From: Escherichia coli
Lineage (GTDB): Bacteria > Pseudomonadota > Gammaproteobacteria > Enterobacterales > Enterobacteriaceae
Assembly: GCF_013315695.1 (NCBI RefSeq)
Contig: NZ_CP054353.1
Length of the DNA stretch: 64,000 nt
Reading direction: 5' to 3' (one strand)
Shown here: in pieces, positions 8,401 to 64,000 of the stretch
Position numbering within the stretch: position 1 is the stretch's first letter
Layout: every line of letters begins with the position of its first letter
Notes under the pieces: model-generated
The model's input: the letters and a program-made list of their open reading frames with translations, nothing else
What the model was told of the DNA's origin: nothing
The model's database searches: none
Position numbers and translations under genes: made by a program

Positions 8401-10043
8401 GTGCCGCCGCTGGTAACCGCCAACAATTGAGCGCCAGGTCGGGCGGTCAATATCCCGGTCTCCCTGTTCCAGACCAGTTTGGGGCGAAAAGCAGAAAAAT
8501 CGCCAGAGGGATAGCGCCCGGAAAGCATATCCAGCGTGGCGTCAAAAACACGTCCTGGCAGATCTTTCCACGGTGCGGCACGGCGTACGCGGGAGTACCA
8601 TTCGTCTACCTGTAATGCATCCATCGCCGCGGCGGCAACGGTTTGCTGCGCAAGGACGTCGAGTGGATTATGCGGTGGTGTCAGGTTTTCCAGCCTGCCT
8701 GCGAACATACACTCTACAATGACTGCGGAATCGACTAAGTCACGCCGGGTTCGGGGGAAAAAAAGCCCTTTAGATACACCGCCAACCTGATGTCCGGCAC
8801 GTCCAATGCGTTGTAACCCACTGGCAACAGAAAGCGGCGTTGCCACCTGAATCACCAGATCCACCGCGCCCATATCAATCCCTAGTTCGAGACTGGAGGT
8901 TGCGACCACGCAGCGTAATTCACCCGATTTCAGCGCCTGTTCGGTGATTGCTCGTTGTTCTTTAGAGACGGAGCCGTGGTGTGAGCGGGCAATAAAAATG
9001 TCGCTACTTTGTACACGGTTAGAGGTTGCGCCGGAGGTCGACTCGAAATGGGCCGCATCAACGGCGATAGACGGGGAACGCTGTAAGCGAGCGGCGTAAA
9101 GCTCATTTAATCGTGCCGTCAGTTTTTCCGCCAGCCCGCGCGAATTAGTAAAGATAATGGTCGAGCGATGGCGCAACACTTCATCAAGGATACCCGTTTC
9201 AATATATGGCCAGATGGAGCCTTCCCGGCCGGCATGGCTGTCTTCGCCGGTGCCGCTGGCGACTGATGAGACATCATCCATATTGGCGACCGGTACGACA
9301 ATCCGTATCTGCGGATGGCGCATTGCGGGCGGGTTGACTACCGTAACCGGGCGATCGCCACCAAGAAATGCTGCCACATCGCTCGCTGAGCGCACAGTGG
9401 CAGAAAGGCCAATTCGCTGTGCTGAGGTGTGGAGCAGCGCATCGAGCCGCTCCAGACTTAACGCCAGATGCGCACCACGTTTACTGCCTGCTACCGCGTG
9501 GACTTCATCAATAATTACCGTTTCGACGCCGCGTAGCGTTTCGCGCGCGCGGGAGGTCAGCATCAGATAGAGTGATTCGGGTGTGGTGATCAGAATATCC
9601 GGCGGATTACGGGTGAGTTTGCTGCGTTCCTGTGCAGGCGTATCGCCAGTACGGATCCCCACGCGAAGATTGACTTCCGTTTCGCCGCGCCGCCGCCGTT
9701 CATCGGCAATACCCTGTAACGGGATCTGCAAGTTGCGCTGAACGTCGGTGCCCAGAGCTTTGATCGGTGAAATATAGAGAATGCGTGAGGTTTTACGCTT
9801 ATGCGCCTCGCGGGTATCTTCGCCGCCTTCGCGGAAGAGCTGATCGAGGGCGTAGAGAAATGCTGCCAGCGTTTTCCCGGAGCCAGTCGGTGCAATCACC
9901 AGCGCATGTTCGCCTCGCGCCGCCACATGCCAGGTTTGCGACTGGACAGCGGTCGGCTGTTTAAAGGCGCGAAGAAACCAGTCGCGGGTCGCCGGTGAAA
10001 ACACGTCCGGCAGGGGCGAGGAAGGGTTTAGATTATCTGCCAT
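5427..10043 (-). CDS. lhr: Large ATP-dependent helicase Lhr
   Basis: 1538-aa ORF; Walker A APTGSGKT, DEVH box (IIDEVHAV), characteristic length and position downstream of rnt. Confidence 0.95.
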   Translation of the reverse strand: MADNLNPSSPLPDVFSPATRDWFLRAFKQPTAVQSQTWHVAARGEHALVIAPTGSGKTLAAFLYALDQLFREGGEDTREAHKRKTSRILYISPIKALGTDVQRNLQIPLQGIADERRRRGETEVNLRVGIRTGDTPAQERSKLTRNPPDILITTPESLYLMLTSRARETLRGVETVIIDEVHAVAGSKRGAHLALSLERLDALLHTSAQRIGLSATVRSASDVAAFLGGDRPVTVVNPPAMRHPQIRIVVPVANMDDVSSVASGTGEDSHAGREGSIWPYIETGILDEVLRHRSTIIFTNSRGLAEKLTARLNELYAARLQRSPSIAVDAAHFESTSGATSNRVQSSDIFIARSHHGSVSKEQRAITEQALKSGELRCVVATSSLELGIDMGAVDLVIQVATPLSVASGLQRIGRAGHQVGGVSKGLFFPRTRRDLVDSAVIVECMFAGRLENLTPPHNPLDVLAQQTVAAAAMDALQVDEWYSRVRRAAPWKDLPGRVFDATLDMLSGRYPSGDFSAFRPKLVWNRETGILTARPGAQLLAVTSGGTIPDRGMYSVLLPEGEEQAGSRRVGELDEEMVYESRVNDIITLGATSWRIQQITRDQVIVTPAPGRSARLPFWRGEGNGRPAELGEMIGDFLHLLADGAFFSGTIPPWLAEENTIANIQGLIDEQRNATGIVPGSRHLVLERCRDEIGDWRIILHSPYGRRVHEPWALAIAGRIHALWGADASVVASDDGIVARIPDTDGKLPDAAIFLFEPEKLLQIVREAVGSSALFAARFRECAARALLMPGRTPGHRTPLWQQRLRASQLLEIAQGYPDFPVILETLRECLQDVYDLPALERLMRRLNGGEIQISDVTTTTPSPFAASLLFGYVAEFMYQSDAPLAERRASVLSLDSELLRNLLGQVEPGELLDPQVIRQVEEELQRLAPGRRAKGEEGLFDLLRELGPMTVEDLAQRHTGSSEEIASYLENLLAVKRIFPTMISGQERLACMDDAARLRDALGVRLPESLPEIYLHRVSYPLRDLFLRYLRAHALVTAEQLAHEFSLGIAIVEEQLQQLREQGLVMNLQQDIWVSDEVFRRLRLRSLQAAREATRPVAATTYARLLLERQGVLPATDGSPALFASTSPGVYEGVDGVMRVIEQLAGVGLPASLWESQILPARVRDYSPEMLDELLATGAVIWSGQKKLGEDDGLVALHLQEYAAESFTPAEADQANRSALQQAIVAVLADGGAWFAQQISQRIRDKIGESVDPSALQEALWALVWQGVITSDIWAPLRALTRSSSNARTSTRRSHRARRGRPVYAQPVSPRVSYNTPKLAGRWSLLQVEPLNDTERMLALAENMLDRYGIISRQAVIAENIPGGFPSMQTLCRSMEDSGRIMRGRFVEGLGGAQFAERLTIDRLRDLATQTAQTRHYTPVALSANDPANVWGSLLPWPAHPATLVPTRRAGALVVVSGGKLLLYLAQGGKKMLVWQEKEELLAPEVFHALTTALRREPRLRFTLTEVNDLPVRPTPMFTLLREAGFSSSPQGLDWE

Positions 10044-10135
10044 TAACGCTATTCCCCGTGAATATCATGCATGATGCGTGGAATAGCCTCACTATAGATG
10101 CCTGAATCATTGCATGTCATCAGGCATCGACTCGA

Positions 10136-10783
10136 TTACACCTCTTCGGCGGCAGGTAGCGGCCAGCCTCCCAGACGTTTCCAGCGGTTGACGATTTCAC
10201 AAAACAGCACAGCAGTGCGTTCGGTGTCGTACAACGCGGAGTGCGCCTGGGTGCTGTCGAAGTCCATGCCAGCGGTCTGGCAAGCCTTTGACAATACGGT
10301 TTGTCCGAGTGCCAGCCCGGCCAGTGCAGCAGTGTCAAAAGTGGCGAAAGGGTGGAACGGGTTACGTTTCAGTGAGGCGCGTTCTGCGGCGGCCATCATA
10401 AAGCTGTGATCGAAATTGGCGTTGTGCGCCACCATAATGGCGCGGTTACAGCCGCTCGCTTTAATGCCTTTACGTACAACTTTAAAAATTTCGTGCAGCG
10501 CCTCGTATTCGCTGACCGCGCCGCGATCGGGATCGTTCGGGTCAATACCGTTGAAGGCGAGGGCCTCTGGCTGCAAATTTGCGCCGACAAATGGTTCGAC
10601 GTGGAAATGTAATGTGGTGTCCGGCATCAGCCAGCCTTGTTCATCCATTTTCAGGGTGATGGCGGCAATCTCAAGCAGCGCATCGGTTTTGGCGTTAAAT
10701 CCGGCTGTTTCAACATCGATCACAACAGGATAAAAACCACGAAAACGGTCGCACAGACCGGTAAGTTGAGCGTTATCGGACAT
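10136..10783 (-). CDS. rnt: Ribonuclease T
   Basis: 215-aa ORF, DEDD exonuclease motifs ([10 protein letters not shown]...), nemRA-gloA-rnt-lhr order. Confidence 0.95.
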
Positions 10784-12507: not shown

Positions 12508-13107
12508 CTAAACGGCAGGCGTCGCAATAATGGTTTTTACATGTGCCAGCGCGTTTTCCAGTGGCTCGTAATTGCGCGAAATTTTGGCCTGCAGATTCGC
12601 ACCCAGCCACAGTGCGTAAAGCACTTGTGCCTGTTGCAGCGGTTCGCCACAAAAGGTTAAACAATGGCTATCACGGCCATTTTCCAGCGCCTGCGAGAGC
12701 AGGGCGATCACGCCGCGAGCGCCTTTATCCATCGCGCTACGCATATCTTCTGACAGATCGCACACTTCGGCAGAGAGTTTTACTGTCAGGCAACCACTGA
12801 TGGTTCCATGTTGGCAAAACTGGTTCAGTGTTTGCTGGTAATAAGCCAGTATGCGGTCGCGGTAGTTACCTTCGCCGGATTGCAGCAACTCAGTCAGTCG
12901 CTGGTGATATGCGGCGTAATGGCGCTCAAGCATGGCAACGCCAAACGCTTCTTTAGAGCGAAAGTAGTGATAGAAGGACCCTTTCGGCACTTCAGCAGTT
13001 TTTAGGAGTTCGCTTAGCCCCATCCCGGTGAATCCACGTTGCAGGCAAAGTTGCTCGCCCGTCGCCAGGAGATGTTCGCGAGTATCATGTTCGGTGTGTT
13101 TGTTCAT
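12508..13107 (-). CDS. nemR: TetR-family repressor NemR
   Basis: 199-aa ORF with N-terminal TetR HTH; upstream of nemA. Confidence 0.92.
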   Translation of the reverse strand: MNKHTEHDTREHLLATGEQLCLQRGFTGMGLSELLKTAEVPKGSFYHYFRSKEAFGVAMLERHYAAYHQRLTELLQSGEGNYRDRILAYYQQTLNQFCQHGTISGCLTVKLSAEVCDLSEDMRSAMDKGARGVIALLSQALENGRDSHCLTFCGEPLQQAQVLYALWLGANLQAKISRNYEPLENALAHVKTIIATPAV

Positions 13108-13121
13108 GCGTTGGAGTGTAG

Positions 13122-13137
13122 TAGACCAGTCGGTCTA
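13122..13137. promoter_or_regulatory. NemR box (operator) in nemR promoter
   Basis: tagaccagtcggtcta = TAGACC-N4-GGTCTA inverted repeat 15 bp upstream of the nemR start; matches the remembered NemR box. Confidence 0.6.
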
Positions 13138-13209
13138 GTGCAAGCAAAGTTGCTACTTTGGGCATTAACAGCTTCAATAGTGGTAATAATCTTATCTGAG
13201 GAGGGCGAA

Positions 13210-13449
13210 GTGGCGGAGCAATTAGAGTTCTTTCCCGTCCAGAGCCCGTGCCGGGGAATTTGCCAGTCTGACGAACGCGGATTTTGTCGCGGCTGCTTTC
13301 GCAGTCGGGATGAGCGTTTTAACTGGAATAAAATGAGCGATGGCGAAAAACAAGAGGTACTGCGCCTTTGTCGGCAGCGATTAATGCGCAAATTACGTGC
13401 AAATAAGCCGGCGTCATCAGATGAACCGGAGCAACCATCACTCTTTTGA
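13210..13449 (+). CDS. ydhL: DUF1289 Cys-rich small protein YdhL
   Basis: GTG start at 13210, in frame with ORF 13039..13449; 79-aa product VAEQLEFFPVQSPCRGICQSDERGFCRGCFRSRDE... with CxxxC...CxxC pattern. Confidence 0.8.
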   Translation: MAEQLEFFPVQSPCRGICQSDERGFCRGCFRSRDERFNWNKMSDGEKQEVLRLCRQRLMRKLRANKPASSDEPEQPSLF

Positions 13450-13497
13450 GCCTAATCTTGCGTATACTCCTCTCATATCTGATAAGAGGAAGCGATT

Positions 13498-14394
13498 ATG
13501 GTTCAGCGTATTACTATTGCGCCGCAAGGCCCGGAGTTTTCCCGTTTTGTGATGGGCTACTGGCGATTGATGGACTGGAATATGTCCGCCCGCCAGCTGG
13601 TCAGTTTTATTGAAGAGCATCTGGATCTCGGCGTGACCACCGTGGACCATGCTGATATTTATGGTGGCTATCAGTGCGAAGCGGCGTTTGGCGAGGCGCT
13701 GAAACTGGCACCTCACCTGCGTGAACGGATGGAAATCGTCAGTAAATGCGGTATCGCGACGACCGCGCGTGAAGAAAACGTCATTGGTCATTACATCACT
13801 GACCGCGATCACATCATTAAGAGCGCCGAACAGTCGCTAATTAATCTCGCGACCGATCATCTGGATCTGCTGTTAATCCACCGACCAGACCCGTTAATGG
13901 ATGCCGATGAAGTGGCGGACGCGTTTAAACATCTGCATCAGAGCGGCAAAGTGCGCCATTTTGGCGTATCCAACTTCACGCCCGCGCAATTTGCCCTGTT
14001 GCAATCACGCCTGCCGTTTACCCTTGCCACTAATCAGGTGGAAATATCCCCGGTGCATCAGCCGTTACTGCTGGATGGCACGCTCGACCAACTGCAACAA
14101 CTGCGTGTTCGTCCGATGGCGTGGTCCTGCCTTGGTGGTGGTCGTCTGTTTAATGATGATTATTTCCAGCCGCTGCGTGATGAACTGGCTGTGGTGGCGG
14201 AGGAGTTAAACGCGGGCTCGATTGAACAGGTGGTTTACGCCTGGGTATTACGTTTACCGTCGCAGCCGCTGCCAATTATCGGCTCAGGTAAAATTGAGCG
14301 CGTACGGGCAGCTGTCGAAGCTGAAACACTGAAAATGACCCGTCAACAATGGTTCCGTATCCGTAAAGCGGCATTGGGTTACGACGTACCGTAA
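13498..14394 (+). CDS. ydhF: Aldo-keto reductase family oxidoreductase YdhF
   Basis: 298-aa ORF; AKR-type sequence; position between ydhL and sodC. Confidence 0.9.
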   Translation: MVQRITIAPQGPEFSRFVMGYWRLMDWNMSARQLVSFIEEHLDLGVTTVDHADIYGGYQCEAAFGEALKLAPHLRERMEIVSKCGIATTAREENVIGHYITDRDHIIKSAEQSLINLATDHLDLLLIHRPDPLMDADEVADAFKHLHQSGKVRHFGVSNFTPAQFALLQSRLPFTLATNQVEISPVHQPLLLDGTLDQLQQLRVRPMAWSCLGGGRLFNDDYFQPLRDELAVVAEELNAGSIEQVVYAWVLRLPSQPLPIIGSGKIERVRAAVEAETLKMTRQQWFRIRKAALGYDVP

Positions 14395-14474
14395 GCACTT
14401 TTAGGAATAGCCGCCGTTCAAAAATGTGTCACTGGTTTACACTTATTCAGGAATGCACAATGAACGGAGGTCCT

Positions 14475-14996
14475 ATGAAACGTTTTAGTCTGGCCATTCT
14501 GGCGCTGGTTGTTGCGACCGGCGCACAAGCTGCCAGTGAAAAAGTCGAGATGAACCTCGTCACGTCGCAAGGGGTTGGGCAGTCAATTGGTAGCGTCACC
14601 ATTACTGAAACCGATAAAGGTCTGGAGTTTTCGCCCGACCTGAAAGCATTACCCCCCGGTGAACATGGCTTCCATATTCATGCCAAAGGAAGCTGCCAGC
14701 CAGCCACCAAAGATGGCAAAGCCAGCGCCGCGGAATCCGCAGGCGGGCATCTTGATCCACAAAATACCGGTAAACATGAAGGGCCAGAAGGTGCCGGGCA
14801 TTTAGGCGATCTGCCTGCACTGGTCGTCAATAATGACGGCAAAGCTACCGATGCCGTCATCGCGCCTCGTCTGAAATCACTGGATGAAGTCAAAGACAAA
14901 GCACTGATGGTCCACGTTGGCGGCGATAATATGTCCGATCAACCTAAACCGCTGGGCGGTGGCGGTGAACGCTATGCCTGTGGTGTAATTAAGTAA
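14475..14996 (+). CDS. sodC: Periplasmic Cu,Zn superoxide dismutase SodC
   Basis: ATG at 14475 after ggagg SD; signal peptide MKRFSLAILALVVATGAQA, Cu/Zn-SOD His-rich motifs (GFHIHAKGSC...), 173 aa. Confidence 0.93.
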   Translation: MKRFSLAILALVVATGAQAASEKVEMNLVTSQGVGQSIGSVTITETDKGLEFSPDLKALPPGEHGFHIHAKGSCQPATKDGKASAAESAGGHLDPQNTGKHEGPEGAGHLGDLPALVVNNDGKATDAVIAPRLKSLDEVKDKALMVHVGGDNMSDQPKPLGGGGERYACGVIK

Positions 14997-17009
14997 TTAA
15001 GAGGCCAGCGTACCTTGCGGCGGTGCTTGCTCAAGTTGCGAAAGCGAGCAGTACAGCCGCCAGACAATTGCCGCCAGCTCACGGGCGGCAGGTTGATGAT
15101 GACGGGCAAGGCTGTCGCAAATTCGCTGTAATTCTTCAAGTGTGGCCGCCAGTGATTTTTGCTGAACGCCACGCTCACTCATCACTCCGCGCAACAGTGA
15201 AATACAGTTATCCCGTACTCGCGATAACGGATCGGAACGCGATTCCCAGTCGCGCAATTGCCAGACAACATGAGAACAGTTCAGCAGCACTACACCCCAG
15301 CGTAATAACCAACGGCGAGCCATCGCATCCTGGCTGTTACTCAACTGACTGACGTGATGATAAGTGAGCGATTCAAATTCGCTTTCACTCAGTGATGGAT
15401 GGCGGCTTAGTTGATCGACAAAATCCCGGCGCAGCGCGCGAATATGACGGCGACTTTTACGAGCATCCGATCCTGGACGCAGAATGGCGAACGCTAACCA
15501 CGCCAGCGCAACGCCAACGATTTTTGCCAGATTATCGTTAAGAAAATCAGCAAAATCATACACCGGGGGATTAGTGACAGCGATAAACGAACCCATAAAA
15601 ACAATCAGTTGCCCCCACAGTGCGGCAAATTTGGGCATCTGCAATTTAAGAAGCTGCATCGTCGCCAGCAGTGGAAAGAGAAACAGTAAAAATTGCCACA
15701 GATCGCTAATCTGGACCATCAGGCCAAATTTGACCACAAAGCTGAATAGCGAAAGTAACACCAGCGTACGCATCAGCAGTGACAACGACTTAAACGGTGC
15801 TGCGACGGCGGAGTAGAGTACGCAGCTAATTGCTGCCAGCGTTAATGCATTGGCACCGGCATCCCATTGCGAAGCAATACTCCATGCGCCAATCATCATC
15901 AACGTACAAAATGTACGCAGCCCGCTCCACATAGCTTCGGCGTTATCGGTATGACGAGCCAGGCCGGATGTCCGTGGGAGTCTGGTATGATCATCTACAC
16001 CGCTTTGCAGATGATGTAATTCCTGACTACTTTGCAGATAAAGGCGGCAAAAATAACGTAGTCGCTGCCAGAAGGCGATGTGCCGGTAGTCGGCGACGTT
16101 GGTCGGGCGTAGTGGGGCGATAATACGTGCGACGGTGTAAACATCTGTTTGCGAACTGGCGAGCGCCGTCAGCAGCTGTTCGAGAATTTCTCGTGTGGCA
16201 CCTGGCGGTGAGGGCCAGTTGAGCAACATACGTCGCAGGCTGGAGATGACACTGGTCATACGTAATTGCTGGTGGAGCAGCGCATTAAGGCGTGCGTTTT
16301 GCTGGCGAAAACGATAGTGGCTCCAGAAAGCCTGGATACGGAGCAAATTCATGGTCAGTATCTGCCCAATCACCCCCTCATGTGCTGCACGAATGGCATC
16401 GGTTGTTTCAGGCTGCCAGAGTAAACTGGCATGTTCCAGCAATCGGGCGTGCATGTTTTTCAATGCGGTTAAAAGGGCTGTAGCATCGGAACTGCTCGGC
16501 AGGATCATCATCATCATGCCGCCGCACAAAATACCGACAATCACCTCGCAAACGCGCGCCTGAGCGATATCCCACAGCTGGCTGGCCTCAGTAATATTAA
16601 CCATCGGAAAGGCGATGATGGCAGCCGTGTAGCCCGCCAGTTGAAATGCATACGCGACATTATTCGTGAAGTGCGCACAGGCCCAGGTACAAAAGCCAAG
16701 CCACGCCGCCATGCTCAAAAGAAAAAACCACGGCTCATTAAGTGTATGTCCGGCAAGAAGCAGTGCCGCAATGGCTCCGAGCAAACTGCCAGCGATGCGT
16801 CCGAGGCTTTTGCTGATGACACCGCCAACGGTGGGAAAGCTAACCACCGCAGCCGAGGTCATCGCCCAATAGGGTTCATCCAGATTCAAATAATAGGCAA
16901 CCGTCAGCGCCAGACACATGGCAATAGTATTGCGTAACGCATAACGCCATTGCGCCAGCGTGGCCCTGAACCAGGGCAAATTGCGCAAGGACCATGACGA
17001 TGTGTTCAT
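14997..17009 (-). CDS. ydhK: FUSC-family (aromatic acid exporter-like) inner membrane protein YdhK
   Basis: 670-aa ORF; stop abuts the sodC stop; overlaps ydhJ by 1 nt. Confidence 0.9.
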
Positions 17010-42962: not shown

Positions 42963-45838
<2,876 letters not shown>

Positions 45839-45853
45839 GGTAATGACTCCAAC

Positions 45854-46357
45854 TTATTGATAGTGTTTTATGTTCAGATAATGCCCGATGACTTTGTCAT
45901 GCAGCTCCACCGATTTTGAGAACGACAGCGACTTCCGTCCCAGCCGTGCCAGGTGCTGCCTCAGATTCAGGTTATGCCGCTCAATTCGCTGCGTATATCG
46001 CTTGCTGATTACGTGCAGCTTTCCCTTCAGGCGGGATTCATACAGCGGCCAGCCATCCGTCATCCATATCACCACGTCAAAGGGTGACAGCAGGCTCATA
46101 AGACGCCCCAGCGTCGCCATAGTGCGTTCACCGAATACGTGCGCAACAACCGTCTTCCGGAGCCTGTCATACGCGTAAAACAGCCAGCGCTGGCGCGATT
46201 TAGCCCCGACATAGCCCCACTGTTCGTCCATTTCCGCGCAGACGATGACGTCACTGCCCGGCTGTATGCGCGAGGTTACCGACTGCGGCCTGAGTTTTTT
46301 AAGTGACGTAAAATCGTGTTGAGGCCAACGCCCATAATGCGGGCTGTTGCCCGGCAT
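45854..46357 (-). CDS. insB: IS1 transposase InsB
   Basis: 167-aa [61 protein letters not shown]... Confidence 0.95.
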
Positions 46358-46551
46358 CCAACGCCATTCATGGCCATATCAATGATTTTCTGGTGCGTAC
46401 CGGGTTGAGAAGCGGTGTAAGTGAACTGCAGTTGCCATGTTTTACGGCAGTGAGAGCAGAGATAGCGCTGATGTCCGGCGGTGCTTTTGCCGTTACGCAC
46501 CACCCCGTCAGTAGCTGAACAGGAGGGACAGCTGATAGAAACAGAAGCCAC
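46276..46551 (-). CDS. insA: IS1 InsA
   Basis: 91-aa [46 protein letters not shown]... Confidence 0.95.
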
Positions 46552-46606
46552 TGGAGCACCTCAAAAACACCATCATACACTAAATCAGTAAGTTGGCAGC
46601 ATCACC

Positions 46607-52004: not shown

Positions 52005-53430
52005 TAATGCCGATCAGTTAAGGATCAGTTGACCGATCCAGTGGCTGTGTAAGAATCCGGAAACGCTCACTTGTTTCCGGATTTTTTTATGCACATTGGA
52101 CAGGCTCTTGATCTGGTATCCCGTTACGATTCTCTGCGTAACCCACTGACTTCTCTGGGGGATTACCTCGACCCCGAACTCATCTCTCGTTGCCTTGCCG
52201 AATCAGGTACTGTAACGCTACGCAAGCGCCGTCTTCCCCTCGAAATGATGGTCTGGTGTATTGTTGGCATGGCGCTTGAGCGTAAAGAACCTCTTCACCA
52301 GATTGTGAATCGCCTGGACATCATGCTGCCGGGCAATCGCCCCTTCGTTGCCCCCAGTGCCGTTATTCAGGCCCGCCAGCGCCTGGGAAGTGAGGCTGTC
52401 CGCCGCGTGTTCACGAAAACAGCGCAGCTCTGGCATAACGCCACGCCGCATCCGCACTGGTGCGGCCTGACCCTGCTGGCCATCGATGGTGTGTTCTGGC
52501 GCACACCGGATACACCAGAGAACGATGCAGCCTTCCCCCGCCAGACACATGCCGGGAACCCGGCGCTCTACCCGCAGGTCAAAATGGTCTGCCAGATGGA
52601 ACTGACCAGCCATCTGCTGACGGCTGCAGCCTTCGGCACGATGAAGAACAGCGAAAATGAGCTTGCTGAGCAACTTATAGAACAAACCGGCGATAACACT
52701 CTGACGTTAATGGATAAAGGTTATTACTCACTGGGACTGTTAAATGCCTGGAGCCTGGCGGGAGAACACCGCCACTGGATGATACCTCTCAGAAAGGGAG
52801 CGCAATATGAAGAGATCAGAAAACTGGGTAAAGGCGATCATCTGGTGAAGCTGAAAACCAGCCCGCAGGCACGAAAAAAGTGGCCGGGACTGGGAAATGA
52901 AGTGACAGCCCGCCTGCTGACCGTGACGCGCAAAGGAAAAGTCTGCCATCTGCTGACGTCGATGACGGACGCCATGCGCTTCCCCGGAGGAGAAATGGCG
53001 GATCTGTACAGTCATCGCTGGGAAATCGAACTGGGATACAGGGAGATAAAACAGACGATGCAACTGAGCAGGCTGACGCTGAGAAGTAAAAAACCGGAGC
53101 TTGTGGAGCAAGAGCTGTGGGGTGTCTTACTGGCTTATAATCTGGTGAGATATCAGATGATTAAAATGGCGGAACATCTGAAAGGTTACTGGCCGAATCA
53201 ACTGAGTTTCTCAGAATCATGCGGAATGGTGATGAGAATGCTGATGACATTGCAGGGCGCTTCACCGGGACGTATACCGGAGCTGATGCGCGATCTTGCA
53301 AGTATGGGACAACTTGTGAAATTACCGACAAGAAGGGAAAGGGCCTTCCCGAGAGTGGTAAAGGAGAGGCCCTGGAAATACCCCACAGCCCCGAAAAAGA
53401 GCCAGTCAGTTGCTTAACTGACTGGCATTA
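52005..53430 (+). mobile_element. IS4 copy 1 (1426 bp), no target-site duplication
   Basis: 18-bp imperfect terminal inverted repeats TAATGCCGATCAGTTAAGG / CCTTAACTGACTGGCATTA; flanks ccgcccttcgggg vs gtccccagggaga differ. Confidence 0.93.
52089..53417 (+). CDS. insG: IS4 transposase (DDE, IS4 family)
   Basis: [66 protein letters not shown]...; identical to the ORF in copy 2. Confidence 0.93.
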
Positions 53431-56149: not shown

Positions 56150-56240
56150 TAGACTGGCCCCCTGAATCTCCAGACAACCAGTATCACTTATTTAAGTGAT
56201 AGTCTTAATACTAGTTTTTAGACTAGTCATTGGAGAGCAG

Positions 56241-56606
56241 ATGATTGATGTCTTAGGACCGGAGAAACGCAGACGGCGTACCACACAGGAAAAGATCGCA
56301 ATTGTTCAGCAGAGCTTTGAACCGGGGATGACGGTCTCCCTCGTTGCCCGGCAACATGGTGTAGCAGCCAGCCAGTTATTTCTCTGGCGTAAGCAATACC
56401 AGGAAGGAAGTCTTACTGCTGTCGCCGCCGGAGAACAGGTTGTTCCTGCCTCTGAACTTGCTGCCGCCATGAAGCAGATTAAAGAACTCCAGCGCCTGCT
56501 CGGCAAGAAAACGATGGAAAATGAACTCCTCAAAGAAGCCGTTGAATATGGACGGGCAAAAAAGTGGATAGCGCACGCGCCCTTATTGCCCGGGGATGGG
56601 GAGTAA
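56241..56606 (+). CDS. insC: IS2 InsC (OrfA)
   Basis: [56 protein letters not shown]... Confidence 0.93.
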
Positions 56607-57469
56607 GCTTAGTCAGCCGTTGTCTCCGGGTGTCGCGTGCGCAGTTGCACGTCATTCTCAGACGAACCGATGACTGGATGGATGGCCGCCGCAGTCGTCA
56701 CACTGATGATACGGATGTGCTTCTCCGTATACACCATGTTATCGGAGAGCTGCCCACGTATGGTTATCGTCGGGTATGGGCGCTGCTTCGCAGACAGGCA
56801 GAACTTGATGGTATGCCTGCGATCAATGCCAAACGTGTTTACCGGATCATGCGCCAGAATGCGCTGTTGCTTGAGCGAAAACCTGCTGTACCGCCATCGA
56901 AACGGGCACATACAGGCAGAGTGGCCGTGAAAGAAAGCAATCAGCGATGGTGCTCTGACGGGTTCGAGTTCTGCTGTGATAACGGAGAGAGACTGCGTGT
57001 CACGTTCGCGCTGGACTGCAGTGATCGTGAGGCACTGCACTGGGCGGTCACTACCGGCGGCTTCAACAGTGAAACAGTACAGGACGTCATGCTGGGAGCG
57101 GTGGAACGCCGCTTCGGCAACGATCTTCCGTCGTCTCCAGTGGAGTGGCTGACGGATAATGGTTCATGCTACCGGGCTAATGAAACACGCCAGTTCGCCC
57201 GGATGTTGGGACTTGAACCGAAGAACACGGCGGTGCGGAGTCCGGAGAGTAACGGAATAGCAGAGAGCTTCGTGAAAACGATAAAGCGTGACTACATCAG
57301 TATCATGCCCAAACCAGACGGGTTAACGGCAGCAAAGAACCTTGCAGAGGCGTTCGAGCATTATAACGAATGGCATCCGCATAGTGCGCTGGGTTATCGC
57401 TCGCCACGGGAATATCTGCGGCAGCGGGCTTGTAATGGGTTAAGTGATAACAGATGTCTGGAAATATAG
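56564..57469 (+). CDS. insD: IS2 transposase InsD (OrfB, expressed by -1 frameshift from insC)
   Basis: 301-aa ORF overlapping the insC 3' end in the -1 frame; DDE integrase-type sequence. Confidence 0.93.
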
Positions 57470-57480
57470 GGGCAAATCCA

Positions 57481-58125
57481 AAATGCCGACTGACTGTCTG
57501 TGCGCATCCAATGACTAAAGGGAACATTAAGCGTAAAAGCGAGTAAATGATCCCGATCGTTTTGCCATATATTATTGGAATAGCTGTAATTCAGCGAAGT
57601 CGTAATATCACTAAACGGCACATTTAATCCAAATGATATTTGCTGGTCGCTGCGTGACGTGTTCCAGTAACTTTGGCGACTGGCACTGAAAAATGTCGTA
57701 CCGTAATTTCCAAGCTGCTGAGAGATGCTTATTTGTTCCTGACCACGCTTACTGTAGAACAGATTAAAATAATCAATAAATTGTGTCTGCTCATTGCTGT
57801 CTCCGGTAGGAGGCTTGACGGTGTAACCACTCATTCGACTGTAGGCACTGTCGGATAAGTTATAAAAACCTTGCGTAGAATAGCGATATCCTGCGACCTG
57901 GATATTGGTTCCCGTCTGGTAGAAGGATTTGCTGTAGACGGATTTAATCGATTGCCCGCTGTGACGGGTGCCATCTGCAAGTGTCGTATTGGCCTGCGTG
58001 ATATCGAAAGAAAAGGCACCAAAAAGTCCTAAATCTTTACCAATACCAAGGTTGAAGGCCTGATAATCTTCTGCAATTTGCATTCCGCCATAAGGCGTCC
58101 AGTTTCCTTCCAGTCCATGCATCAA
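57481..58125 (-). pseudogene. ydeT: Fimbrial usher internal fragment (ydeT-like); N-terminal part of the usher absent
   Basis: ORF 57394..58125 is usher-like until it runs into IS2; together with 55350..56149 about 480 codons, roughly half of a full usher; upstream is AT-rich non-coding. Confidence 0.65.
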
Positions 58126-58506
58126 GTCATTCTGTTATTGCTTATAAAACAAGAATCATTCTTGATGGGATATTGCCCTGAGAATATAGTTTCCAGGGTT
58201 ATTACATTTCACGAAGAACGATAATATCTTTAAATTACAAGGACACCTAATCACAACAAGTTTATTGCAGCACTTGTTGTAGAGAGTATTTGCAAAGACA
58301 TTTTATGTCGCTAAATAACATGACGATTTCATTATGCATGTTATTTATAAACCGTGACTAAACAGAATATTATTGCGAACAAGGGAAGTGTCAGGAAAGG
58401 TCAAGAGCGACCAATGGTTTATATGGCTATAAATCATTAGCTATAGTTAATGTTTGCCTGGTGTAACTAACACGGAATTGCTCTAAACAGATAAGTGCAG
58501 GGTTTA

Positions 58507-58761
58507 TTAAAGCTGACCGACAGACTTTCTTAACCTGGTAATATCTCTCTTAGGTGACTCTCCAAACATCCGCGAATATTCCCGACTGAAATGGGATAAG
58601 CTTTCGTAACCGACAACATAGGCTGCAGTGGTGACATCGTAATGTTCATTCAGCATCAGTCGCCTGGCTTCATTGAGGCGTAGCCATTTCTGATACCGGA
58701 GTGGACTCATTCCCGCAAGCTGTATGAAGTGTTGATGGAAAGAGGGGGTGTTCATTTGCAC
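58507..58761 (-). pseudogene. yneL: AraC-family regulator C-terminal HTH fragment (yneL-like)
   Basis: 84-aa ORF with AraC-type second HTH (...YVVGYESLSHFSREYSRMFGESPKR...); no intact N-terminal domain upstream. Confidence 0.6.
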
Positions 58762-59150
58762 GCGGTTTGCCAGCCTGACTCTTCAACGCAGGGAAGATGC
58801 GGCAAACGGCAAACCTGCATACCAGCCAGCCTATATCCGGTATGCACAGGCCAATCATGAAAGAGGAGAGGCTTTATGTTCTGGAACCCTGAAGTAATAA
58901 CGACGACCGGAAAATCGCTTCGCATCACTCAAATCACATTTAACATAATATACATTATGCGCACCAACATAAACCAAGGAAGAATCCAGTCGTTGGCGGT
59001 CATGATTGTCGTGCTCATTAATAACGACCAAACCCCATATTAACTGCCGCATCAAAAACGCCATGATCCGCGCGATGCCTGGGCCTCCATCTGATTCATG
59101 AAAGTGACAACGGTCTGGCATAACGGCTGGCTAACCACTCCGGTGCATAC

Positions 59151-61119
59151 TTAAAGGTGTGCGCGCCGTTGGCTAACTTCGTTAAGTTCGCCGGTCACGT
59201 TTTTTAGCGTTAACAGACCGTCACTAGCAATATTTCCTCTGCCTAACCCCTGCGTATTGTCGAGGCTGACTTCCGCATTTGGGCTAATGCTGGTTAACGC
59301 ATTGTAGCGTGCATTAAGCCCCTCGATAGCCAGTGTTCCCCCTGTAACATTCAGGTTTCCGCCACCTGTCAGTTCGCCCTGACTGATCCCACCTTTATTC
59401 ACCGTCAGCGAACCTTCTTTGAACAAAACAGTCGAACCCATCAGCCCGGTGAATGTCTCCACCGTCTGGGCCGATCCATTAAGATCGACGATGGCCGCGT
59501 TGCTGATGTTCAGTTCCCGGGTGTTGCCCAGCGCGCCATCCGCATCGGTACGTAATGTCCCCATCTGAACATAGGTTGCCCCCTGATAGTCGTTCTGACC
59601 GTTGGAAAGCGAAACCTGTCGCACCGTATTGATTGCCAGATCCCCTTCACCACCGATTTTTGCCGACATATCGGCCGTTGCGCCATAGGCTCCGCCATGT
59701 TCGGCTAACGTCAGCTTTTGCCCTCCATGGATGTTCAGCGCTTTCAGCCCATAGTTAACGTACAAACCATCACCTGGTGCGGTCGTGAGGCGGAATCCAT
59801 AATCACCCTCGGCGACCACCGTTCCGTTTTGCGCAATGTGTAACGTTTTGTCCGCTTCCACCTCGTCGCCCTGTAAATCACGTAACGTTAATGAGCCACC
59901 CGACCCAATAACCGTTTGCGCCTTCACCAGTTGAACGCCGACATGGCTATCATCGTGTTCCAGCAAATTGAGCGTCGTCAGAGGGTTATTCGCCATGGGA
60001 TCATTCCACGGTTTAGGCACGTCGATAAGCACGTCGCCCGTCCCGTTTACCTGATAGTTACGGCCTTTCCAGGTGTAGTCACCCGCGCCGACAACCAGCG
60101 TATCGACGCTGATATATCCCTCTGCAAGCGTCGCAGCAGGAATATCCGTATCGAAAATGAGCGTACCGCCATTCATGGCCAGTCCACCAATGGATTGCTC
60201 TCCCACTTTTACCGATGTGGTATTTTCACTGTCAGACTGCAACATCGCGTGAGTAAGCGCAGCGGTGTTGTCGCGTTCCAGAGTGAAGGTACTGTCTTTC
60301 AGTTGGGCAACACCGGCGAATTCAGTCCCTGTTGCATGGGTAAAGCCAAATATCTTGTCGGAGGATGACAGCTGCACTCGCATCAAGCCATCGCCTTTGA
60401 GCGCATTGGTCAGCGTGTAATCTCCTGCGCTGTTCGTTGATGCGAGAATGTCGAGCGTACCGGGGCTTGCAATGGTGACTTCACTCGAACCCATGCCTGT
60501 TACCCCATCTGCCGTATGTGACGCAATAGTCAGGAGGCCGTCATTGACCAGCGTTTTACCGCTATAAGTATTCCCTGCATTGAACACCGTATGGCCTGCA
60601 TCATGCATCACTTTTCCGTCTTTATCGTCACCCGTAATCAGCATATCGACCTGGTAGCCGGCATCACTGTTATTGGTATGATTAAAGACAAAAACGCCTT
60701 CGCCAAGACCAAACTCCACTTTCGTCGCATTGGTAATAAACCCGGCATCTGCCGCCACCTCACCGTGAGCAGCACCAATGTTTAGCGTTCCTACAGCAGG
60801 CTCAAAAACACCTAAGTAAACTTCTCCACCTTCGACATTCAGCGTGCCGTTATTCGTCAGGGTTAACGTACCTGTGCCAGTCGTCCCTACGTTCATATTG
60901 AATGTTTCAAGAAGAGAGTTCTGCCCATCCACCCGCACGTCGCCCTTACTTTTGTCATTCAGAGCTATCTGTGTATCACGCGCTTTAACTATACCTCCGG
61001 TGGTAATATTCAGTTCACCCGTACCTAATACACCGACCTGTAGCAATTGGGCGTTAGTAGATGACGTTTTTAAATTCCAGAGACTATCCGTTGAAATATT
61101 AACTATCCCCTTACCGGAG
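59151..61119 (-). pseudogene. AIDA-I-like autotransporter adhesin passenger domain, C-proximal part (no beta-barrel translocator follows)
   Basis: ORF 59151..61046 (631 aa), Gly/Thr/Asn-rich beta-helix-type repeats (TGTGTLTLTNNGTLNVEGG...); ends ...EVSQRRAHL without a barrel domain. Confidence 0.7.
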
Positions 61120-62545
61120 TAATGCCGATCAGTTAAGGATCAGTTGACCGATCCAGTGGCTGTGTAAGAATCCGGAAACGCTCACTTGTTTCCGGATTTT
61201 TTTATGCACATTGGACAGGCTCTTGATCTGGTATCCCGTTACGATTCTCTGCGTAACCCACTGACTTCTCTGGGGGATTACCTCGACCCCGAACTCATCT
61301 CTCGTTGCCTTGCCGAATCAGGTACTGTAACGCTACGCAAGCGCCGTCTTCCCCTCGAAATGATGGTCTGGTGTATTGTTGGCATGGCGCTTGAGCGTAA
61401 AGAACCTCTTCACCAGATTGTGAATCGCCTGGACATCATGCTGCCGGGCAATCGCCCCTTCGTTGCCCCCAGTGCCGTTATTCAGGCCCGCCAGCGCCTG
61501 GGAAGTGAGGCTGTCCGCCGCGTGTTCACGAAAACAGCGCAGCTCTGGCATAACGCCACGCCGCATCCGCACTGGTGCGGCCTGACCCTGCTGGCCATCG
61601 ATGGTGTGTTCTGGCGCACACCGGATACACCAGAGAACGATGCAGCCTTCCCCCGCCAGACACATGCCGGGAACCCGGCGCTCTACCCGCAGGTCAAAAT
61701 GGTCTGCCAGATGGAACTGACCAGCCATCTGCTGACGGCTGCAGCCTTCGGCACGATGAAGAACAGCGAAAATGAGCTTGCTGAGCAACTTATAGAACAA
61801 ACCGGCGATAACACTCTGACGTTAATGGATAAAGGTTATTACTCACTGGGACTGTTAAATGCCTGGAGCCTGGCGGGAGAACACCGCCACTGGATGATAC
61901 CTCTCAGAAAGGGAGCGCAATATGAAGAGATCAGAAAACTGGGTAAAGGCGATCATCTGGTGAAGCTGAAAACCAGCCCGCAGGCACGAAAAAAGTGGCC
62001 GGGACTGGGAAATGAAGTGACAGCCCGCCTGCTGACCGTGACGCGCAAAGGAAAAGTCTGCCATCTGCTGACGTCGATGACGGACGCCATGCGCTTCCCC
62101 GGAGGAGAAATGGCGGATCTGTACAGTCATCGCTGGGAAATCGAACTGGGATACAGGGAGATAAAACAGACGATGCAACTGAGCAGGCTGACGCTGAGAA
62201 GTAAAAAACCGGAGCTTGTGGAGCAAGAGCTGTGGGGTGTCTTACTGGCTTATAATCTGGTGAGATATCAGATGATTAAAATGGCGGAACATCTGAAAGG
62301 TTACTGGCCGAATCAACTGAGTTTCTCAGAATCATGCGGAATGGTGATGAGAATGCTGATGACATTGCAGGGCGCTTCACCGGGACGTATACCGGAGCTG
62401 ATGCGCGATCTTGCAAGTATGGGACAACTTGTGAAATTACCGACAAGAAGGGAAAGGGCCTTCCCGAGAGTGGTAAAGGAGAGGCCCTGGAAATACCCCA
62501 CAGCCCCGAAAAAGAGCCAGTCAGTTGCTTAACTGACTGGCATTA
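61120..62545 (+). mobile_element. IS4 copy 2 (1426 bp) with perfect 13-bp target-site duplication
   Basis: Same terminal repeats as copy 1; ccccttaccggag at 61107..61119 and 62546..62558. Confidence 0.95.
61204..62532 (+). CDS. insG: IS4 transposase
   Basis: Translation identical to copy 1. Confidence 0.93.
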
Positions 62546-64000
62546 CCCCTTACCGGAGGCATTTCCTCCGATAAATCCATAGCCCGTTGAATTAAGGGTG
62601 GCACCATTACTGACATTTACGATGCCGCTACCAAAATTACCGACATTGATACCTACAGTATCGAACGATGATGTCGCATCCATCAGGTTCAGTGTGCCGA
62701 TACCGCTTGCTTTATCGCCCAAAAAAGTAATATTTTGCGATACGAACTTACCGCCATCGCTGATATTGAGGTTTCCGACGCCCGCTACACCAATGGTGGT
62801 ATAGACATTCTTATTGACCTCCCATATCCCCCCCGTGGTGATGCTAACCTTCCCGACGCCGGTTTCTCCATAACCGAGTGAACTTCCTCCGTTGCTGACA
62901 ACAAGCCCCTCATTACTGATATTCATTTCGCCGTGGCCGTCATAACCAAGATTAGTTCCGAGATTAGTGATAACGGAGTTCTTATCCTTAACAGTAATGT
63001 TGCCTGTGCCTGTTTCTTTCATCCCCGCAGTGATAATTCCCGAATCTACTTTGCCTTCACTAGAGACATTAAGTTCACCGTCGCCAGCATCACCGATATA
63101 GATATAGCGGAAAGCTTCGCCCGTTCCGAGGAAATTCCAATGCCCTTTATCGGTCACGTTGACGACACCGTGGGAACCGTCCTGAACGCCCACCAATGAA
63201 TATTCTTTGTTATTAATCAGTCCATTATTGGAAATATTGACTTTGCCATTACCGAAATATCCATTATAGAGTCTGCGTACCGTGATGACAGAGTCTTGAT
63301 CCTGCACATTCAGGGTTCCGATACCGGTGGCATTGCCTCCGATAATCGTATTTTCAGCCGTAATTAGCCCACCCTCGCGAATAGTCGCTTCCCCAGTTCC
63401 TTGATTACCAATTTGAAATTCAATTGAGGAATCGTTATTTTTTATTAGCCACTCACCGCCCTTTTCAACGACAACCTTACCATTACTGTTCGCTTGATAT
63501 CCTACAGTGGCGACTATTGAACTCGTGACGTAACCCTTATCCGTAATATTTAATGAGCCCGTACCGTAACTCCCTATTTCGAATAATTCGGTCGTCAGAA
63601 CCGAGTCCTCTCCCTCAACATTAACCGTCCCGACGCCTCCTGTCGAAGAACCTATCCTTAAATATCCTCCGTCAACGTGACCCTTCTGTTTAATATTCAG
63701 CGTCCCCGTTCCGGATTGACCCACATTTAAAGGCCTTGCATTATTTCCGCTATCATACAATCGCCAGGTGCCACCCAAAACATTAACGGTGCCCTCCGAG
63801 TCCTCATTACCACCAATGACGCTGGTAGTAATAGTGGTTAAGGAGGCATTACCGCCAGCCAAAATATTAAGCACTCCAGTGCCATACCACCCAACCAGGT
63901 AGGCATCGTAAGCAACATCAGTATTAATATTGGTAATCTGACCATTATCAACTTCCAGACTCGCACCAGACGCTGAACCGCTTAGTGCCAGCAAAACACC
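62546..64000 (-). pseudogene. AIDA-I-like autotransporter passenger domain, N-proximal part (continues beyond window end)
   Basis: ORF 62543..63994 (483 aa) with repetitive G/N/T-rich motifs (GTGTLNIKQKGHVDGG..., GTGEATIREGG...); stop lies 3 nt inside IS4 copy 2. Confidence 0.7.

What the first reader, a model, noticed from the sequence alone, without database searches (positions are those of the whole stretch)
58507..59150. Only about 390 bp separate the yneL-like fragment from the autotransporter: no hipBA and no autotransporter beta-barrel
As I recall the K-12 map, the hipBA toxin-antitoxin pair and the autotransporter translocator (ydeU) lie between yneL and the passenger (ydeK). Here the passenger ORF ends at 59151 with passenger-type sequence and no barrel, and neither HipA (about 440 aa) nor HipB can fit. 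Either this lineage never acquired hipBA and lost the barrel, or a deletion removed both; with no translocator the passenger could not be surface-displayed.
Basis: inference. Interest (0 to 1): 0.45.

Follow-up and report, generated by a model that had tools for sequence, protein, structure and literature searches.

The report
Deletion scar replacing hipBA and autotransporter barrel
This short stretch of an E. coli chromosome is the dead remnant left after three deletions destroyed the hipBA toxin-antitoxin pair and cut off the membrane-anchor end of the neighbouring autotransporter gene, which is ordinary gene decay in a locus that varies widely between strains.

Summary
The window is E. coli. 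Positions 56150-64000 are 99.99% identical to strain MSB1_4I.

The 389-bp gap is real. No intact hipA, no hipB and no autotransporter beta-barrel occur anywhere in the window.

The gap is not free of hipA. Positions 59047-59099 are hipA codons 267-283, and 59100-59185 are hipA codons 16-44, at 96-100% identity. The lineage therefore once had hipBA.

Three deletions made the scar:
- Two removed internal parts of hipA.
- One of 2,416 bp removed the hipA 5' end, hipB, the intergenic region and autotransporter residues 1178-1806, which include the autochaperone and the barrel.

Strain MS 21-1 carries the same two hipA deletions but keeps an intact hipB. The toxin gene was therefore destroyed first and the antitoxin lost later.

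The passenger gene is also split by IS4. Its last 10 codons and its stop codon are out-of-frame hipA sequence.

Among 5,426 complete genomes, only 2 share the final junction. However, about 16% lack most of hipBA and about 29% lack most of the barrel segment. Strain I4 has an independent deletion of the same kind.

Verdict: a real but ordinary pseudogene scar of low interest.

The parts
58507..58773 (-). yneL-like pseudogene: the C-terminal helix-turn-helix fragment of an AraC-family regulator, with the N-terminal domain missing.
   Evidence: The 84-aa ORF matches Pfam HTH_18 at E=1.6e-20. It aligns to the K-12 yneL region. The identical MSB1_4I sequence is annotated as a partial helix-turn-helix pseudogene.
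58774..59040 (.). Native yneL-hipA spacer, ending 1-2 bp before the position of the hipA stop codon. It includes a strongly divergent patch that runs from 58702 to 58940.
   Evidence: blastn places 58252-59040 on K-12 1590079-1590852, and hipA begins at 1590854. Identity per 50 nt is given. There is no Rfam match and no terminator-like site.
59041..59046 (.). Junction J1: a short filler of about 6-9 nt (TAACTGCCG spans it) with no clear template. It replaces about 472 bp of the hipA 3' end.
   Evidence: Junction sequences were compared with K-12, MS 119-7 and MS10860.
59047..59099 (-). hipA relic 1, codons about 267-283 (ESDGGPGIARIMAFLM).
   Evidence: blastn gives 96.2% identity over 53 bp to K-12 1591325-1591377. 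tblastn matches HipA residues 267-283 at 94%.
59100..59184 (-). hipA relic 2, codons 16-44 (LTKLANGAHTFKYAPEWLASRYARPLSLS). Junction J2 lies at 59099/59100 and removed about 668 bp of mid-hipA.
   Evidence: blastn gives 98.8% identity over 86 bp to K-12 1592046-1592131 and 100% to MS 119-7. tblastn matches HipA residues 14-44 at E=5e-13. MSB1_4I annotates it only as a partial 'hypothetical protein'.
59185..59185 (.). Junction J3: a 2,416-bp deletion that removed the hipA 5' 45 bp, hipB, the hipB-autotransporter intergenic region and 1,897 bp of the autotransporter 3' end. The exact overlap is 1 nt, next to a shared TCGCC pentamer. The fusion is out of frame.
   Evidence: The two sides correspond to MS 119-7 reference positions 8247 and 10664.
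59185..61119 (-). Middle fragment of the autotransporter passenger, residues about 531-1177 of the 1806-aa ECSE_1600/yneO-family protein. It has no signal peptide, autochaperone or barrel.
   Evidence: NCBIfam NF011422 positions 555-1177. tblastn with the intact protein matches residues 531-1182 at 97%. Domain map of the intact protein: autochaperone AC_1 at 1332-1438 and beta-barrel PF03797 at 1525-1784.
61120..62545 (+). IS4 insertion (1,426 bp) that splits the autotransporter. It has a 13-bp target duplication, CCCCTTACCGGAG.
62546..64000 (-). N-terminal autotransporter fragment, residues about 50-534. It continues past the window end to the ESPR signal peptide.
   Evidence: tblastn matches residues 50-534 at 97%. 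MSB1_4I annotates it as an 'ESPR-type extended signal peptide-containing protein'.
57481..58126 (-). Context: an internal fragment of the F9 fimbrial usher (ydeT-like). IS2 (56150-57480) bounds it on one side. On the other side is a 2.9-kb deletion that removed the usher N-terminus, the chaperone and the major subunit.

Best explanation
The interval is a non-functional deletion scar in an E. coli lineage that once carried the standard yneL-hipA-hipB-autotransporter arrangement.

The steps were:
- First, two illegitimate internal deletions (J1, about 472 bp; J2, about 668 bp) reduced hipA to two relics of 53 and 131 bp. This killed the kinase toxin and left hipB as an orphan antitoxin.
- Later, a third deletion of 2,416 bp (J3) removed the first 45 bp of hipA, all of hipB with its promoter and operators, and the last 1,897 bp of the adjacent type Va autotransporter. 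That segment encoded residues 1178-1806: a PATR repeat, the autochaperone and the beta-barrel translocator.
- IS4 insertion also split the remaining passenger. Its timing relative to J3 is unknown.

Nothing here is expected to function. There is no HipA kinase and no HipB repressor. The passenger fragments can be neither exported nor displayed.

Shown directly: the homologies, the breakpoints, the intermediate allele and the population frequencies. Inferred: the order of events (by parsimony) and the lack of function.
For: - K-12 map.
- Colinear blastn of the window against K-12 and against the intact reference MS 119-7, giving the four homology blocks and three gaps.
- tblastn finds HipA residues 14-44 and 267-283 only, and no HipB or barrel in 64 kb.
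- Domain map of the intact 1806-aa protein, and the window ORF ending at model position 1177.
- MS 21-1 matches window 58187-59185 at 99.9% without gaps. It therefore has the same J1 and J2, and then continues into the hipA 5' end and an intact hipB.
- The exact J3 junction is present in two independent complete assemblies, MSB1_4I from Australia and AF3 from the UK. It is not an assembly artefact.
- Junction sequences show only 1-6 nt of microhomology or a filler.
- Decay of chromosomal toxin-antitoxin systems in E. coli is documented in the literature (PMC2654758).
Against: - The order 'toxin first' rests on parsimony from one intermediate allele seen in three genomes. No phylogeny was built. 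Recombination could have moved the J1/J2 allele between lineages.
- Only the window was available, not the source genome. A second hipBA copy or a displaced barrel elsewhere cannot be formally excluded. However, MSB1_4I and AF3 each show only one place matching the hipA relics.
- Lack of expression or function of the chimeric ORFs was not tested.
Confidence: 0.9

Rival explanations
1. The lineage never acquired hipBA. The short spacer would then be the ancestral state, with only the barrel lost.
For: Some E. coli have entirely different content after yneL. ETEC4068 has an oxidoreductase cluster there instead of hipBA and the autotransporter. In addition, 181 of 5,426 genomes show no hipBA match at all.
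Against: Two hipA segments lie in the spacer at 96-100% identity, in the correct order and orientation. A close relative, MS 21-1, has the same relics plus hipB.
Confidence: 0.01
2. One single deletion removed hipA, hipB and the barrel together.
For: Such single events do occur. Strain I4 has one 2.6-kb deletion running from near the hipA 3' end into the autotransporter. O157 strains lack hipB together with the hipA 5' end.
Against: The window has three separate breakpoints with retained hipA blocks between them. J1 and J2 exist without J3 in MS 21-1 and two other genomes.
Confidence: 0.05
3. The scar encodes something new and functional, such as the chimeric 88-aa ORF (58855-59121), a truncated secreted passenger, or a small RNA.
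For: An 88-aa ORF with an ATG start spans both hipA relics and part of the yneL-hipA spacer. The N-terminal autotransporter fragment, which carries the ESPR signal, is annotated as an intact CDS in MSB1_4I.
Against: The 88-aa ORF has no Pfam or NCBIfam match. There is no Rfam match at E<=1. No promoter-like or terminator-like sites lie in 58500-59300, because all promoter-like hits fall in the AT-rich fimbrial leader at 58162-58447. The allele is confined to 2 of 5,426 genomes.
Confidence: 0.03
4. It is an assembly or sequencing artefact that collapsed the region.
For: None specific.
Against: The identical 301-bp junction segment occurs in two independently assembled complete genomes from different countries. 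The junctions are clean.
Confidence: 0.01

Closest known systems
E. coli K-12 hipBA type II toxin-antitoxin locus (b1507/b1508)
   Same: It occupies the same chromosomal position, between yneL and the yneO autotransporter. The two retained segments are 96-99% identical to K-12 hipA.
   Different: Only codons 16-44 and 267-283 of 440 remain, and they are not in one reading frame. hipB and its promoter are gone entirely.
ECSE_1600-family AIDA-I-type autotransporter (K-12 pseudogene yneO = ydeK + ydeU)
   Same: Passenger residues about 50-1177 are 97% identical to the intact 1806-aa protein of strain MS 119-7.
   Different: Residues 1178-1806 are missing, including the autochaperone and the PF03797 barrel. 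IS4 splits the gene at about residue 531-534. K-12 yneO is also a pseudogene but keeps its barrel.
Documented decay of chromosomal toxin-antitoxin systems (ccdO157 and hok/sok in E. coli)
   Same: The decay is stepwise, by deletions and insertion sequences, and differs from strain to strain (PMC2654758). The toxin was inactivated while the antitoxin persisted, as in MS 21-1.
   Different: It involves a different toxin-antitoxin family. The final step here also removed part of a neighbouring gene.
Independent hipA-hipB-barrel deletion in E. coli strain I4 (NZ_CP195978.1)
   Same: It also lacks most of hipA, all of hipB and the autotransporter C-terminus including the barrel.
   Different: It is a single 2.6-kb deletion with different breakpoints (reference positions 7144-9760). 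It removed 331 C-terminal residues rather than 629.

Membership tests
HipBA type II toxin-antitoxin system | A full-length HipA Ser/Thr kinase of about 440 aa, with HipA N-terminal and C-terminal domains. | tested here: not met
   tblastn recovers only HipA residues 14-44 and 267-283. The ORF across the relics matches no Pfam or NCBIfam family.
HipBA type II toxin-antitoxin system | A HipB helix-turn-helix antitoxin gene directly upstream, in an operon with hipA. | tested here: not met
   No HipB match better than E=0.96 anywhere in the window. The corresponding reference positions 8248-10663 are deleted.
Type Va (classical, AIDA-I-type) autotransporter, ECSE_1600 family | A C-terminal 12-stranded beta-barrel translocator (Pfam PF03797). 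| tested here: not met
   The intact orthologue has PF03797 at residues 1525-1784. The window ORF ends at model position 1177 and has no PF03797 hit. tblastn with residues 1178-1806 finds nothing in the window.
Type Va (classical, AIDA-I-type) autotransporter, ECSE_1600 family | A single polypeptide joining the signal peptide, the passenger and the barrel. | tested here: not met
   IS4 at 61120-62545 separates residues 50-534 from residues 531-1177.
Type Va (classical, AIDA-I-type) autotransporter, ECSE_1600 family | Passenger sequence homologous to the family. | tested here: met
   NF011422 scores 1390 bits over positions 555-1177. This is below the whole-protein cutoff of 2335 because the ORF is a fragment. 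Protein identity is 97%.
AraC/XylS transcription regulator (yneL) | A C-terminal double helix-turn-helix DNA-binding domain. | tested here: met
   HTH_18 at E=1.6e-20, covering profile positions 6-76 of 80.
AraC/XylS transcription regulator (yneL) | An N-terminal sensing or dimerisation domain that makes a protein of about 250-300 aa. | tested here: not met
   The ORF is only 84 aa. In-frame stops lie upstream. It is annotated as lacking the N-terminus in every strain examined.

The most novel reading that the evidence does not exclude
The yneL-to-autotransporter interval may be a recurrent deletion hot-spot where hipBA and the neighbouring barrel are repeatedly lost together. Independent events are seen in this lineage and in strain I4, with many other alleles elsewhere. 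Such loss might be favoured by selection in lineages rich in insertion sequences and undergoing genome decay. The J1/J2 to J3 series would then offer a natural, ordered record of how a chromosomal toxin-antitoxin pair is dismantled, toxin first and antitoxin afterwards.
Probability: 0.1. Interest if true: 0.3.

Novelty: already known. Interest (0 to 1): 0.1.

Why it matters
It matters little beyond annotation.

- The RefSeq 'hypothetical protein' pseudogene at 59099-59185 in the identical MSB1_4I sequence is in fact a hipA relic.
- Strains of this lineage should lack HipA-dependent persistence and cannot display this autotransporter.
- The shared and unshared junctions in MSB1_4I, AF3 and MS 21-1 are convenient lineage markers. 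They also give a small natural example of toxin-before-antitoxin decay.

Tried and rejected
- An Rfam scan of 57900-59400 at E<=1 found nothing.
- The promoter and terminator scan found promoter-like sites only in the AT-rich fimbrial leader at 58162-58447. It found none in the scar and no terminators.
- Pfam and NCBIfam searches on the 88-aa chimeric ORF gave no hits.
- Literature searches for ydeK/ydeU/yneO and for natural hipBA deletions found no paper describing this allele. They returned only general statements: the region 5' of the F9 operon is variable while hipBA is usually conserved (PMC7232551), and chromosomal toxin-antitoxin systems decay (PMC2654758).
- I looked for clear direct repeats at the junctions. 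There is only 1-3 nt of exact microhomology at J3 and at the fimbrial deletion, a CCCCAT repeat plus filler at J1, and none at J2.
- A suspected shared target sequence between the two IS4 copies turned out to be only an approximate match.
- I could not test the source genome as a whole for a second hipBA copy or a relocated barrel.

Full report
**Identity of the window.** The sequence is Escherichia coli. Window 56150-64000 is 99.987% identical over 7,851 bp to strain MSB1_4I (NZ_LR898874.1, human rectal swab, Australia). Upstream of the IS2 element the two genomes are arranged differently. The window therefore comes from a close relative of MSB1_4I and not from that assembly.

**Check of the observation.** The ORF list shows an 84-aa ORF at 58507-58761 (-) and a 631-aa ORF at 59151-61046 (-), so 389 bp lie between them.
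- The 84-aa ORF is the C-terminal helix-turn-helix part of an AraC-family regulator (Pfam HTH_18, E=1.6e-20). It is colinear with the K-12 pseudogene yneL.
- The K-12 record confirms the recalled order: ydeT, yneL, hipA, hipB, yneO (the ydeU/ydeK autotransporter pseudogene), lsrK.
- tblastn with K-12 HipB, and with residues 1178-1806 of an intact orthologue of the autotransporter, finds nothing significant anywhere in the 64-kb window.

The gap contains hipA DNA. The blastn alignments against K-12 and against strain MS 119-7 (L008) give a colinear series. L008 has a complete F9 fimbrial operon, hipA (frameshifted), hipB and an intact 1806-aa autotransporter.

| Window | Matches | Identity |
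|---|---|---|
| 58252-59040 | yneL plus the native yneL-hipA spacer, ending one base before hipA | about 86% overall |
| 59047-59099 | K-12 1591325-1591377, inside hipA | 96.2% |
| 59100-59185 | K-12 1592046-1592131, inside hipA | 98.8% (100% to MS 119-7) |
| 59185-61119 | K-12 1594563-1596497, inside yneO | 97.2% |

At the protein level the two relics are HipA residues 267-283 and 14-44. That result is obtained, and it rules out the alternative that hipBA was never acquired.

The passenger ORF also does not end in passenger sequence. Autotransporter homology stops at 59185. The last 10 codons and the stop (NEVSQRRAHL*) are the hipA relic read in another frame.

**Anatomy of the scar.** Relative to the intact reference there are three deletions.
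- J1 (window 59040/59047) removed about 472 bp of the hipA 3' end and left a 6-9 nt filler.
- J2 (59099/59100) removed about 668 bp of mid-hipA, counted on K-12.
- J3 (at 59185) removed 2,416 bp. This comprises the first 45 bp of hipA, all of hipB, the intergenic region that holds the hipBA promoter, and the last 1,897 bp of the autotransporter.

The junctions show a filler at J1, no microhomology at J2, and a 1-nt overlap beside a shared TCGCC pentamer at J3. This points to illegitimate recombination and not to recombination between long repeats.

The intact autotransporter has these domains: ESPR signal peptide at 1-47, a PATR repeat at 1254-1281, the autochaperone AC_1 at 1332-1438 and the beta-barrel PF03797 at 1525-1784. 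The window ORF matches NCBIfam NF011422 (ECSE_1600 family autotransporter) only at positions 555-1177. Everything needed for translocation and folding of the passenger has therefore been lost.

The gene is also split by a 1,426-bp IS4 at 61120-62545, which has a 13-bp target duplication. The 631-aa ORF consequently has no signal peptide either.

**Order of events.** Strain MS 21-1 (human colon, USA) aligns to window 58187-59185 at 99.9% without gaps. It therefore carries exactly J1 and J2. It then continues into the remaining hipA 5' end and an intact, annotated hipB.

In the junction search, five complete genomes hold J1 and J2 in one piece. Only two of them, MSB1_4I and AF3 (blood culture, UK), also hold J3.

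Identical complex junctions are very unlikely to arise twice. The parsimonious history is as follows:
1. hipA was destroyed first.
2. hipB persisted as an orphan antitoxin.
3. J3 then removed hipB together with the barrel.

This is the order expected for a toxin-antitoxin pair, because losing the antitoxin first would be toxic. It also matches reported decay of other chromosomal toxin-antitoxin systems in E. coli (PMC2654758). The order is inferred, because no phylogeny was built.

MSB1_4I and AF3 each show a single place matching the relic-containing query. This argues against a second hipA copy of this type in those genomes.

**Population context.** K-12 hipBA (1,589 bp) is at least 80% covered in 4,564 of 5,426 complete E. 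coli genomes. It is partly present in about 680 and undetectable in 181. The 884-bp barrel segment is at least 80% covered in 3,869 genomes and gives no match in 1,218.

The locus holds many independent alleles:
- Strain I4 has a single 2.6-kb deletion from near the hipA 3' end through hipB into the autotransporter, removing its barrel.
- TUM9812 lacks the hipA 5' half.
- O157 strains lack hipB and the hipA 5' end.
- MS10860 has a hipA 3' fragment abutting yneE.
- ETEC4068 has an unrelated oxidoreductase cluster after yneL.
- MS 21-1 kept barrel fragments but lost most of the passenger.

A published comparison already notes that the region 5' of the F9 fimbrial operon next to hipBA is variable and that F9 is disrupted in many strains (PMC7232551). 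The exact allele here is rare, at 2 of 5,426 genomes. The kind of event is common.

**Function.** No RNA family matches the interval. No promoter-like or terminator-like sites lie in the scar itself. The chimeric 88-aa ORF across the relics matches no protein family.

The best-supported reading is a non-functional scar. The strain has no HipA kinase and no HipB. The passenger fragments cannot be exported, because the middle fragment has no signal peptide. They cannot be displayed, because there is no barrel and the barrel is required for type Va secretion according to established knowledge.

**Comparison and novelty.** The scar is the remnant of two well-known systems, K-12-type hipBA and an AIDA-I-type autotransporter of the ECSE_1600/yneO family. 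It fails the defining tests of both (see the membership table).

RefSeq already annotates these pieces as pseudogenes in the identical MSB1_4I sequence, although it labels the hipA relic only as 'hypothetical protein'. This is an already known kind of feature and is of low interest.

The only mildly interesting aspect is the natural series showing toxin-first dismantling, together with the recurrent joint loss of hipBA and the neighbouring barrel.

**Limits.** Only the 64-kb window was available, and the source genome was not. Expression and phenotype were not tested.

Noticed in passing
window 56150-57480 and 57481-58126: IS2 (1,331 bp, 5-bp target duplication AAATG) splits the F9 fimbrial usher (ydeT-like). 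A separate 2.9-kb deletion, with its junction at 58126/58127 and AAG microhomology, removed the usher N-terminus, the chaperone and the major subunit. AF3 and MS 21-1 carry different, non-nested deletions in the same operon, so decay is ongoing in this lineage.
   Followed up: partly
window 52005-53430: A second IS4 copy has no target-site duplication. It joins the fumarate hydratase-manA-ydgA-uid region directly to a truncated ydeQ. In K-12, as I recall the map (not checked here), these regions lie about 100 kb apart, so this looks like an IS4-associated rearrangement junction. MSB1_4I shares it but has an additional inversion bounded by IS2 copies relative to the window.
   Followed up: partly
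window about 42963-46606: IS1 (45839-46606) lies between a truncated uidB and a truncated uidC. uidA is annotated as frameshifted in the MSB1_4I sequence that matches this part of the window at 100%, and the largest uidA-frame ORF in the window is 466 aa. The strain is probably beta-glucuronidase-negative.
   Followed up: no
window 58702-58940: This patch at the 5' edge of the yneL fragment is strongly divergent. Identity to K-12 is 52-60% per 50 nt with many gaps at 58702-58839 and 80-88% at 58840-58938, against 92-100% in the flanks. Two haplotypes coexist in E. coli. The window's type is 98.4% identical to ETEC4068, where it is followed by an oxidoreductase cluster and not by hipBA.
   Followed up: partly
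L001 (MSB1_4I) 13075-15001, just beyond the window end: In the near-identical MSB1_4I, an IS1 lies between the autotransporter start and lsrK, and lsrK (autoinducer-2 kinase) is annotated as frameshifted. It is also frameshifted in AF3. This is a further sign of pseudogene accumulation around this locus.
   Followed up: no
L003 (MS 21-1) 7241-7507: MS 21-1 and two other genomes keep an intact hipB next to a destroyed hipA, so hipB is there an orphan antitoxin.
   Followed up: partly
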